Positions 62,444 to 63,261 of a DNA stretch of 64,000 nucleotides are shown one piece after another. The DNA lies in NCBI RefSeq assembly GCF_009914755.1, contig NC_060930.1; one strand, written 5' to 3'. Each line of letters starts with the position of its first letter. Position 1 is the stretch's first letter. Source of the stretch: the human T2T-CHM13v2.0 reference genome, Homo sapiens. The notes below the pieces were generated by a model. It was not told the origin of the DNA. It saw only the letters and a list, made by a program, of their open reading frames with translations, and ran no database searches. The position numbers and the translations under genes were made by a program.

Positions 62444-62579
62444 CCAACTAAAAATACTAAACACACACTATCACCTACCTGCCTCACCAAAATTTATTAA
62501 CATGAAAAATCACAATAAACCCTGAGAGCCAAAATGAACGAAAATTTATTCACTTCATTCATTACCCCCACAATTCTAG
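62444..62579 (+). pseudogene. MT-ATP8 3' fragment (NUMT)
   Basis: Mito code from 62445: [44 protein letters not shown]. Confidence 0.93.
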
Positions 62580-62781
62580 GCCTACCTGCTGCAGTACCAA
62601 TCATCCTATTTCCCCCCTTACTGGTTCCAATTTCCAAATACCTCATCAACAACCGACTAATCACTACCCAACAATGACTAATCCAACTCATCTTAAAACA
62701 AATAATAATGATACATAACATTAAGGGACGAACCTGGTCCCTTATACTAATCTCCCTAATTATTTTTATTGCCGCAACTAA
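62534..62781 (+). pseudogene. MT-ATP6 5' fragment (NUMT), overlapping ATP8 as in mtDNA
   Basis: Mito code: [82 protein letters not shown]. Confidence 0.97.
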
Positions 62782-62821
62782 TTGTGTTCAGTTGATGCAA
62801 AGTAGGGTTTTGCAGTCCTTA
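62782..62821 (+). pseudogene. mt tRNA-Ala 3' half (NUMT)
   Basis: TTGTGTTCAGTTGATGCAAAGTAGGGTTTTGCAGTCCTTA versus remembered human TTGCGTTCAGTTGATGCAGAGTGGGGTTTTGCAGTCCTTA. Confidence 0.88.
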
Positions 62822-62828
62822 GTTGTTG

Positions 62829-62888
62829 CAGAAATTAAGTATTATTAACTTACTAAGGGCTTTGAAGGTTCTCGGTCTATGTTTAACC
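62829..62888 (-). pseudogene. mt tRNA-Trp lacking its first ~10 nt (NUMT)
   Basis: Reverse complement GGTTAAACATAGACCGAGAACCTTCAAAGCCCTTAGTAAGTTAATAATACTTAATTTCTG; TCA anticodon; 7-bp spacer to tRNA-Ala as in mtDNA. Confidence 0.9.
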
Positions 62889-63035
62889 CTCATTTACATA
62901 AACATTACACTAGCATTTACTATCTCACTTTTGGGAATACTAATCTACTGCTCACACCTAATATCCTCCCTGCTATGCCTAGAAGGGATAATGCTATCAC
63001 TATTCATCATAACTACCCTCACAACTCTTAACACC
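62887..63035 (+). pseudogene. MT-ND4L 5' half (NUMT)
   Basis: Mito code: [49 protein letters not shown]. Confidence 0.95.
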
Positions 63036-63261
63036 AATTGACATCATGGCTCAGACTATGCCCATGTATCCGAACGGTTCTTTTTTTCCAGAGTAATATG
63101 TTACGATGTGGGAAATTATTCTGAAGCCTGGTAGGATTAGGATATAGACTTCGGGGTGACCAAAGAATCAAAATAGGTGTTGGTACAGGATAGGGTCTCC
63201 CCCTCCAGCTGGGTCAAAGAAGGTGCTATTAAGGTTACGGTCTGTTAATAATATGGTAATG
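63034..63261 (-). pseudogene. MT-CO1 internal fragment, approx. codons 206-281 (NUMT)
   Basis: Mito code: [46 protein letters not shown][AGA][29 protein letters not shown], including the HPEVY CuB motif. Confidence 0.97.

What the first reader, a model, noticed from the sequence alone, without database searches (positions are those of the whole stretch)
62444..63261. Scrambled four-fragment NUMT captured at one break inside L1 ORF2
Seen: 818 bp of mtDNA from four distant loci (approx. human mtDNA 8.4-8.8 kb, 5.5-5.6 kb, 10.5-10.6 kb and 6.5-6.7 kb) are fused directly, alternating forward/reverse/forward/reverse relative to the mtDNA reference. The Trp/ND4L junction (62887-88) and the ND4L/COX1 junction (63034-35) each share CC, and the COX1/L1 junction shares TG. 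There is no target-site duplication, and about 6 bp of the remembered L1 consensus (GGGAGGG-TGTATG-TGTCCAGG) is missing. Established: NUMTs enter at double-strand breaks through NHEJ/MMEJ. Inference: this was one germline event in which 100-340 bp pieces of shattered mtDNA were concatenated into a break, not a contiguous NUMT rearranged later.
Basis: partly seen in the sequence, partly recalled or inferred. Interest (0 to 1): 0.8.

Follow-up and report, generated by a model that had tools for sequence, protein, structure and literature searches.

The report
Four-piece mitochondrial insert in L1
An 818-base patch made of four separate, alternately flipped pieces of mitochondrial DNA sits in one old break inside a LINE-1 element on human chromosome 6; it is a clean example of a known kind of break repair, not a new one.

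Summary
Window 62444-63261 consists of four mtDNA-derived pieces joined with no nuclear spacer. A is 62444-62782 (+), the ATP8 3' part plus ATP6 codons 1-83. B is 62782-62887/8 (-), parts of tRNA-Trp and tRNA-Ala. C is 62887-63035 (+), ND4L codons 3-51. D is 63034-63261 (-), COX1 codons 206-280. On a long collinear NUMT on chromosome 17, used as a stand-in for mtDNA, the pieces lie in the order B, D, A, C, about 1-2 kb apart. Junction overlaps are 0, 1, 1-2 (CC), 1-2 (CC) and 2 (TG) bases. The flanks are one antisense L1 ORF2. In 24 of 29 other L1 copies exactly six bases lie between them, so six bases were lost and there is no target-site duplication. No other place in this genome spans any junction. 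The best reading is one end-joining event that captured several mtDNA fragments in a double-strand break. "Complex numts" of this type are already described, and the literature favours joining before or during capture. The single-event claim rests on parsimony. Primate orthologues, sequencing reads and a true mtDNA reference were not available. The excess of microhomology is only marginal. Interest is low to moderate.

The parts
62444..62782 (+). Piece A: mtDNA ATP8 3' part (frame from 62445) and ATP6 codons 1-83 (from 62534). About mt 8437-8775; the mt numbering is recalled.
   Evidence: chr17 proxy 10050-10387, 84.6%, E 1e-106. (ATP-synt_8, E 2e-6). (ATP synthase subunit a residues 1-83, E 9e-40, open frame under table 2). 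Ends fixed.
62782..62888 (-). Piece B: reverse-complemented mtDNA holding about 59-60 nt of tRNA-Trp (its first 10 nt absent), the short spacer, and the 3' 41 nt of tRNA-Ala. About mt 5522-5625. 62782 is shared with A, and 62887-88 with C.
   Evidence: chr17 proxy 7257-7152, 90.6%, E 9e-38. (ARAGORN mt mode calls Trp at 7142-7211 and Ala at 7217-7287 in the chr17 proxy, and the same pair in 3 of 4 other proxies; in the fourth the Ala place is called Thr)..
62887..63035 (+). Piece C: mtDNA ND4L from the C run after the start codon through codon 51. About mt 10474-10622.
   Evidence: chr17 proxy 12087-12234, 86.5%, E 6e-47. (Oxidored_q2, E 8e-6). (ND4L residues 3-51, E 3e-19, open frame under table 2)..
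63034..63261 (-). Piece D: reverse-complemented mtDNA COX1 codons 206-280. About mt 6518-6745. It carries one AGA, a stop in table 2, at codon 47 of the piece.
   Evidence: chr17 proxy 8359-8129, 85.4%. (COX1, E 3e-22). (COX1 residues 206-280, E 2e-46; 73 of 75 residues as in the solved chains). (all proxies mismatch at 63262).
61172..62443 (-). Left flank: antisense L1 ORF2, the part downstream of the break in L1 sense, which includes the reverse-transcriptase domain.
   Evidence: RVT_1, E 1e-27 for 61172-62116; the start of RVT_1 at residues 80-113 of 62104-62442. (3151 first-look candidates; the 39 places scored besides the window itself are 93-94% identical). (alignment to L1 copies ends at 62443 in 26 of 29).
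63260..63934 (-). Right flank: the same antisense L1 ORF2, the part upstream of the break in L1 sense. 63260-61 (TG) is shared with piece D.
   Evidence: alignment to L1 copies starts at 63260 in 27 of 29. (ORF2-like open frames 63168-63455 and 63431-63934 on the minus strand; the first runs from L1 straight into the COX1 piece).

Best explanation
This is an old, fixed "complex" NUMT made in a single double-strand-break repair event. A break arose in a resident LINE-1 element, which lies antisense on the + strand, about 80 codons upstream of the reverse-transcriptase domain of ORF2. Four double-stranded mtDNA fragments of 339, about 106, 149 and 228 bp were ligated to each other and to the two chromosome ends by non-homologous end joining. 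All four come from a 5.1-kb arc of the mitochondrial genome.

Joining used blunt ends or 1-2 bases of overlap. The chromosome lost six bases. Because the fragments were joined in random order and orientation, the result reads ATP8/6 (+), tRNA-Trp/Ala (-), ND4L (+), COX1 (-).

The insert has no function. It lies in an intron of a predicted lncRNA and has decayed as neutral DNA.

Shown here: the four pieces, their ends, the overlaps, the six-base loss, and the absence of a second copy. Inferred: that all joins were made at once, and that ligation rather than copying made them.
For: - Four pieces map to four separate places, in the order B, D, A, C, on a collinear NUMT whose tRNA order is that of vertebrate mtDNA.
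- Every base of 62444-63261 is accounted for by mtDNA homology. There is no filler and no nuclear spacer between pieces.
- The flanks are adjacent in other L1 copies. Six bases lie between them in 24 of 29 copies, so there is a six-base loss, no target-site duplication and no poly-A.
- Overlaps of 0, 1, 1-2, 1-2 and 2 bases are in the range described for numt junctions. Passages read in PMC6215612 give microhomology of 1-7 bp or blunt ends. Passages read in PMC9630118 give 51.9% of breakpoints with microhomology, 27.6% blunt, and CC enrichment at breakpoints.
- No other locus in the assembly spans a junction. Only the self-match covers query bases 1-818 or 1-266.
- The six closest NUMTs elsewhere are simple collinear pieces with different end points.
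- No other mtDNA-like stretch lies in the 64-kb window.
- The published consensus is that complex numts are concatenated before or during capture (passages read in PMC6215612 and PMC2820518).
Against: - There is no direct test of simultaneity. Primate orthologues could not be examined.
- A similarity-profile test for equal age of the pieces was uninformative: B versus D over 10 shared NUMTs gave Spearman rho 0.13, p 0.72.
- The nearest long NUMT is on chromosome 17 for A, B and C but on chromosome 5 for D.
- The microhomology excess is marginal: p about 0.03-0.04 on the lenient reading (three junctions of 2 bp), and 0.12-0.15 for at least 1 bp at four of five junctions.
- Strict alternation of orientation has a chance of 1 in 8, and four pieces falling within a 5.1-kb arc about 0.12 (my arithmetic). 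Neither argues for anything special.
- Breakpoints were set with old NUMTs as stand-ins for the source mtDNA, so each could be off by a base or two.
Confidence: 0.78

Rival explanations
1. Copying rather than ligation. A broken end invaded mtDNA and a polymerase switched template three times (replicative template switching, or polymerase-theta-type templated insertion). It copied 100-340 bases at each stop before the end was rejoined.
For: The 1-2 base overlaps at three internal junctions and the alternating strand are what template switching also leaves. All four pieces come from one 5.1-kb arc.
Against: The overlaps are barely above chance. One chromosome junction is blunt. Hazkani-Covo and Covo argue against template switching for primate numts, though for the numts they examined rather than for complex ones (passage read in PMC2567098). 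The sequence alone cannot separate the two mechanisms.
Confidence: 0.1
2. A longer collinear NUMT (about mt 5.5-10.6 kb) was inserted first. It was later cut down and shuffled in the nucleus by deletions and inversions.
For: All four pieces lie within one 5.1-kb arc of mtDNA. The authors of PMC5570036 leave open whether discontinuity arises at or after insertion (passage read).
Against: Turning the order B, D, A, C (all +) into A+, B-, C+, D- needs several inversions and four deletions. These would have to remove 84% of the insert while leaving the L1 flanks intact to within six bases. No remnant of the missing mtDNA lies anywhere in the window.
Confidence: 0.06
3. Serial insertions: two to four separate NUMT insertions hit the same spot at different times.
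For: The equal-age test could not exclude it. Hotspot insertion is discussed as a formal alternative in PMC6215612 and PMC2820518 (passages read).
Against: Each later insertion would have to land exactly at the edge of the earlier one, with no L1 bases between pieces. A few hundred numts are spread over 3.1 Gb: 592 inferred in the human genome in PMC5570036 Table 3. A repeated hit to the same base is therefore extremely unlikely. The rice comparison in PMC6215612 found no recurrent case (passage read).
Confidence: 0.04
4. Artefact: an assembly chimera, or a copy of a compound NUMT that arose elsewhere.
For: None found.
Against: Only the self-match spans the junctions. The pieces are 10-23% diverged from every other NUMT examined, and the closest ones have different ends. 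RefSeq carries three named MT pseudogenes at this place (the hub's table). These symbols predate this assembly, which is recalled and not checked. The annotated spans are only approximate and leave out piece B and the ATP8 part.
Confidence: 0.02

Closest known systems
Complex numts (multi-fragment nuclear mitochondrial insertions) as defined by Hazkani-Covo, Martin and co-workers (PMC5570036, PMC6215612, PMC2820518)
   Same: [quoted passage not shown] The junctions carry end-joining signatures (blunt or short microhomology), the nuclear deletion is small, and there is no target-site duplication.
   Different: In PMC5570036 Table 3, 96 of 592 inferred human numts are complex, and 82 of those 96 have a non-organelle spacer of at least 10 bp. 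A four-piece insert with all pieces directly abutting therefore belongs to the small remainder (at most 14). Nothing differs in kind.
Concatenated NUMTs in present-day human genomes (Wei et al. 2022, PMC9630118)
   Same: There are mtDNA-mtDNA breakpoints inside a nuclear insert. Three of the five junctions here sit at CC, the dinucleotide reported as enriched at NUMT breakpoints. Microhomology and blunt junctions occur in similar proportions.
   Different: Those are rare or private recent insertions, some very large ("mega-NUMTs"). This one is short and diverged. For example, 12 of 83 ATP6 residues differ from the solved human chain. It also sits in the reference annotation.
Capture of mitochondrial DNA at chromosomal breaks in yeast (cited in PMC6215612 as the experimental precedent for complex numts; the original papers were not read here)
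   Same: Fragments of mtDNA patch a double-strand break by end joining, sometimes more than one fragment per break.
   Different: That work used an experimental system with induced breaks. This is a natural germline fossil in a primate genome.

Membership tests
Complex NUMT (multi-fragment mtDNA insertion) | Each piece is homologous to mitochondrial DNA | tested here: met
   (E 1e-106 to 9e-38 against a collinear NUMT). (ATP8, ATP6, ND4L and COX1 under table 2). (tRNA-Trp/Ala by position).
Complex NUMT (multi-fragment mtDNA insertion) | Pieces come from non-adjacent organelle positions and/or differ in orientation | tested here: met
   proxy positions are 10050-10387 (+), 7257-7152 (-), 12087-12234 (+) and 8359-8129 (-). 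The proxy's tRNA order shows that it is collinear with mtDNA.
Complex NUMT (multi-fragment mtDNA insertion) | Pieces lie at one nuclear site, here with no nuclear spacer | tested here: met
   adjoining pieces overlap by 1-2 bases, and no base is unaccounted for.
Complex NUMT (multi-fragment mtDNA insertion) | The insertion is a single event (filled versus empty site in outgroups) | not testable with these tools
   No primate genomes are held. The substitute test was uninformative.
End-joining capture at a double-strand break (NHEJ/MMEJ) | Flanks are contiguous in the pre-insertion sequence, with a small deletion or none, no target-site duplication and no poly-A | tested here: met
   six bases lie between the flanks in 24 of 29 L1 copies (the other five gave 5, 7, 8, 8, 8). 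The left alignment ends at 62443 and the right one starts at 63260.
End-joining capture at a double-strand break (NHEJ/MMEJ) | Junctions are blunt or have short microhomology, in excess of chance | tested here: inconclusive
   One search gives overlaps of 0, 1, 1-2, 1-2 and 2. One search gives p 0.03-0.04 (lenient) or 0.12-0.15 (at least 1 bp at four of five).
Duplicated copy of a compound NUMT (segmental duplication) | A second locus with the same mtDNA-mtDNA junctions | tested here: not met
   only the self-match spans the junctions (40 of 114 and 40 of 44 candidates scored); the six closest NUMTs have other end points.
Retrotransposition-mediated insertion (L1 machinery acting on an mtRNA) | Target-site duplication, poly-A tail, and piece ends at transcript ends | tested here: not met
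   (a deletion, not a duplication). (no A run at either end; piece ends fall inside ATP8, ATP6, ND4L, COX1 and two tRNAs, and piece B spans genes on opposite strands).

The most novel reading that the evidence does not exclude
The insert may not be a ligation of ready-made fragments. It could be the trace of a broken chromosome end that copied from mtDNA by three successive template switches, each primed on 1-2 bases and mostly at CC. That would make it a germline fossil of replicative repair using an organelle genome as template. A systematic look at the few human complex numts whose pieces abut directly could then test this against plain end joining.
Probability: 0.1. Interest if true: 0.45.

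Novelty: new member of a known kind. Interest (0 to 1): 0.22.

Why it matters
This is a tidy natural record of how a germline double-strand break was sealed. Five junctions from one event are preserved, and the pre-break sequence can be recovered from other copies of the same repeat, so loss and overlap can be read to the base. It adds a well-resolved four-piece case to the small set of human complex numts whose pieces abut directly. That set numbers at most 14 of 592 by PMC5570036 Table 3.

It also shows that the current annotation (three MT pseudogenes with approximate, overlapping spans) hides the true structure and omits the tRNA and ATP8 parts. It does not change what is known about numt formation. 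It has no evident function and lies in an intron within a dead L1.

Tried and rejected
- A true mtDNA reference was not available. The genome held has 24 contigs and no mitochondrial contig. I used long collinear NUMTs as stand-ins, so the mt coordinates rest on recalled gene starts plus residue ranges.
- I looked for a near-modern NUMT to date the insert by searching the genome with Pfam COX1. I did not pursue this further.
- Equal-age test: identity of each piece to the same set of NUMT fossils. It was uninformative (B versus D n=10, rho 0.13, p 0.72; other pairs n of 4 or fewer).
- ARAGORN and Rfam at E up to 1 find no tRNA in the window. This is explained by both tRNAs being truncated. At a lowered ARAGORN threshold there were three spurious calls.
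- ATP6 codons 1-83 gave no Pfam match. They were identified through the PDB sequence search instead.
- Catalogue look-up: the three pseudogene symbols occur in one unrelated transcriptome paper only (search listing). The one readable supplement of the RHNumtS.2 paper (PMC3228558) has no entry with end points 8437, 8438, 8775, 8776 or 10474; its only occurrences of 6745 (24), of which the two passages shown are a chromosome 3 NumtS. Its main tables are old .xls files that could not be read, so the locus may well be listed there. By that paper's rule, pieces are merged only if they have the same orientation and lie no more than 2 kb apart on both genomes (passage read). These four pieces would therefore be listed separately.
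- An age calibration through a chromosome 8 NUMT said to be shared with green monkey (bioRxiv 10.1101/016428, passages read) was considered. It was dropped because, without modern mtDNA, the direction of the difference cannot be told.
- The L1 subfamily (L1PA6/7) was not tested, as no repeat library was available.

Full report
**What is there**

Window 62444-63261 (818 bases) differs in composition from its flanks. GC skew falls to -0.4 to -0.6 over the two + pieces and returns to about zero or positive over the two - pieces.

The genome held for this window has 24 contigs and no mitochondrial contig. I therefore used other nuclear copies of mtDNA as stand-ins. The best is a long NUMT on chromosome 17 (C17:23208000-23227999). 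ARAGORN in mitochondrial mode reads its tRNAs in this order: Thr, Pro, Phe, Val, Leu, Ile, Gln, Met, Trp, Ala, Asn, Cys, Ser, Asp, Lys, Gly, then one more just before ND4L, which it called Gln. That is the vertebrate mtDNA order as I recall it, so positions on this proxy stand for positions on mtDNA.

**The four pieces**

BLASTN of window 62300-63400 against the proxy gave four hits and no more:

| Piece | Window | Proxy | Strand | Identity | E-value |
|---|---|---|---|---|---|
| A | 62445-62782 | 10050-10387 | + | 84.6% | 1e-106 |
| B | 62782-62887 | 7257-7152 | - | 90.6% | 9e-38 |
| C | 62887-63034 | 12087-12234 | + | 86.5% | 6e-47 |
| D | 63034-63266 | 8359-8129 | - | 85.4% | 6e-72 |

On mtDNA the order is B, D, A, C, with gaps of about 0.9, 1.7 and 1.7 kb. 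In the window the order is A, B, C, D with alternating strand. A second long NUMT on chromosome 5 gave the same picture for A, C and D.

Gene identity was checked by translation under table 2.
- Piece A carries the last 31 profile positions of ATP8 (Pfam, E 2e-6). It also carries ATP6 residues 1-83, open, best matched by the ATP synthase subunit a chains of entry 8h9f and nine related entries (E 9e-40; 71 of 83 residues identical by my count of the printed alignment).
- Piece C is ND4L residues 3-51, open (Pfam E 8e-6 at 26.0 bits, against a cut-off of 26.1; PDB E 3e-19).
- Piece D is COX1 residues 206-280 (Pfam E 3e-22; PDB E 2e-46). It has one AGA stop and one Thr-to-Ser difference.
- Piece B covers proxy 7152-7257. 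There ARAGORN calls tRNA-Trp at 7142-7211 and tRNA-Ala at 7217-7287 on the other strand. The same pair of calls was made in three of four other proxies, and in the fourth the Ala place was called Thr. B therefore holds Trp without its first 10 bases, the spacer, and the 3' 41 bases of Ala. Both genes are truncated, which explains the empty ARAGORN and Rfam results on the window.

With recalled human gene starts, the pieces are about mt 8437-8775, 5522-5625, 10474-10622 and 6518-6745.

**Junctions**

For each piece end I laid the continuing sequence of every proxy that reached that end against the window.

| Junction | Finding | Overlap |
|---|---|---|
| L1/A | mtDNA homology starts at 62444. 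The proxies continue with bases unlike the L1 flank, and L1 copies continue with a base unlike the insert. | blunt |
| A/B | Both homologies include 62782. | one T |
| B/C | B homology runs to 62888 in 10 of the 11 proxies shown, and to 62887 in the chromosome 17 one. C starts at 62887. | CC or C |
| C/D | C runs to 63035 in 2 of 3 proxies, and to 63034 in the chromosome 17 one. D starts at 63034 in most proxies and at 63033 in three. | CC or C |
| D/L1 | D runs to 63261, and all 10 proxies shown mismatch at 63262. L1 homology starts at 63260. | TG |

The extension of the D hit to 63266 is therefore a chance extension.

No base is left unaccounted for, so there is no filler.

Against a simple chance model, three of five junctions with at least 2 bases gives p 0.03-0.04. 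Four of five with at least 1 base gives p 0.12-0.15. The microhomology is real as a description but weak as statistics.

**The host site**

The flanks are one LINE-1 lying antisense. The minus-strand frames read as ORF2. RVT_1 matches 61172-62116 (E 1e-27), and its first 28 profile positions fall at residues 80-113 of 62104-62442. One frame runs from L1 straight into the COX1 piece. The break is thus about 80 codons upstream of the reverse-transcriptase domain.

I fetched 29 other L1 copies that match the left flank at 93-94% and aligned both flanks to each.
- In 24 of the 29, exactly six bases (TGTATG in most) lie between the end of the left alignment (62443) and the start of the right one (63260).
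- The other five gave 5, 7, 8, 8 and 8, because an alignment stopped a base or two early or late.

So six bases of L1 were lost, or eight if the shared TG is credited to mtDNA. Nothing is duplicated and there is no A run. This is the signature of break repair, not of retrotransposition.

**Is it unique?**

The whole insert finds only itself at full length (40 of 114 candidates scored). The stretch across junctions A/B, B/C and C/D (62775-63040) also finds only itself (40 of 44 scored). Three weaker hits run 7-25 bases past the B/C junction, which one search shows to be partial chance similarity of the continuing mtDNA.

The closest NUMTs elsewhere are simple collinear pieces. Their extents on the proxy all have end points different from the window's pieces.

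| Place | Identity to window piece | Extent on proxy |
|---|---|---|
| C10:100.94 Mb | 90% | 9904-10421 |
| C2:50.58 Mb | 89% | 7885-8612 |
| C8:20.82 Mb | 96% over 110 bases | 10280-10494 |
| C3:99.47 Mb | 94% over 148 bases | 8150-8296 |
| C2:155.7 Mb | 91% | 6485-7817 |
| C5:135.45 Mb | 86% | 11886-12722 |

So there is no parental compound copy and no duplication. The rest of the 64-kb window has no further mtDNA-like stretch. All other hits to the proxy fall in its nuclear repeat flanks.

**How it most likely arose**

The simplest account is one end-joining event that ligated four mtDNA fragments to each other and to the two ends of a break, with minimal processing.

- Serial insertions would need each later insert to land exactly at the edge of the earlier one.
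- Later rearrangement of a 5-kb collinear NUMT would need several inversions and deletions that spared the L1 flanks.
- Both are possible in principle and neither could be tested here, because no primate orthologues are held.
- A similarity-profile test for equal age of the pieces was uninformative.
- Copying by template switching would leave the same sequence and cannot be told apart from ligation.

**What is known**

Numts made of several pieces from different places and orientations of mtDNA are a described class. PMC6215612 (abstract and passages read) defines complex insertions, cites cases in yeast and humans, and calls concatenation before or during capture the current consensus. PMC2820518 (passages read) says the same.

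PMC5570036 (passages and Table 3 read) counts 96 complex among 592 inferred human numts, 82 of them with a spacer of at least 10 bp. PMC9630118 (abstract and passages read) reports concatenated NUMTs in living people, CC enrichment at breakpoints, and 51.9% microhomology against 27.6% blunt junctions.

The locus itself carries three named MT pseudogenes in RefSeq (the hub's table). Their spans are approximate: MTCO1P56 starts 28 bases before piece D and ends 32 bases short of it. Piece B and the ATP8 part are not annotated. I found no paper that describes this locus. The RHNumtS.2 tables that may list it could not be read.

**Verdict**

The finding is a clean new example of a known kind.

Noticed in passing
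window 62534-63229 (hub annotation rows MTATP6P25, MTND4LP19, MTCO1P56): The RefSeq pseudogene spans do not match the true piece ends. MTATP6P25 runs 12 bases past piece A. MTND4LP19 and MTCO1P56 overlap each other by 43 bases. MTCO1P56 misses the last 32 bases of piece D. The tRNA-Trp/Ala piece (62782-62888) and the ATP8 part (62444-62533) have no annotation.
   Followed up: yes
G000 C13:5327862, C14:1628317, C15:1839688, C21:2308210, C22:3809930: COX1-bearing NUMT copies on the short arms of all five acrocentric chromosomes score almost identically (157.7-160.1 bits) and share the same pattern of stops. This suggests one NUMT spread by duplication among acrocentric short arms. A second such set lies at C13:9.43, C14:2.91 and C15:4.79 Mb.
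   Followed up: no
L021+L025 (G000 C17:23208000-23227999), proxy positions about 900-12300: This is a pericentromeric NUMT of at least 11 kb, collinear with mtDNA from tRNA-Thr/Pro through the control region to ND4L. ARAGORN calls the tRNA just before ND4L (12014-12083) as Gln (anticodon ttg), where mtDNA order would put Arg. This is probably a point change in the anticodon.
   Followed up: partly
window 63168-63455, minus strand: A 95-codon stop-free frame (standard code) runs from L1 ORF2 directly into the COX1-derived piece. It is a chance in-frame fusion of dead sequences, and there is no sign that it is expressed.
   Followed up: no
window 55399-64000 (hub row LOC105377894): The NUMT and its host L1 lie in the last intron of a predicted lncRNA on the + strand. 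No exon overlaps the insert.
   Followed up: no
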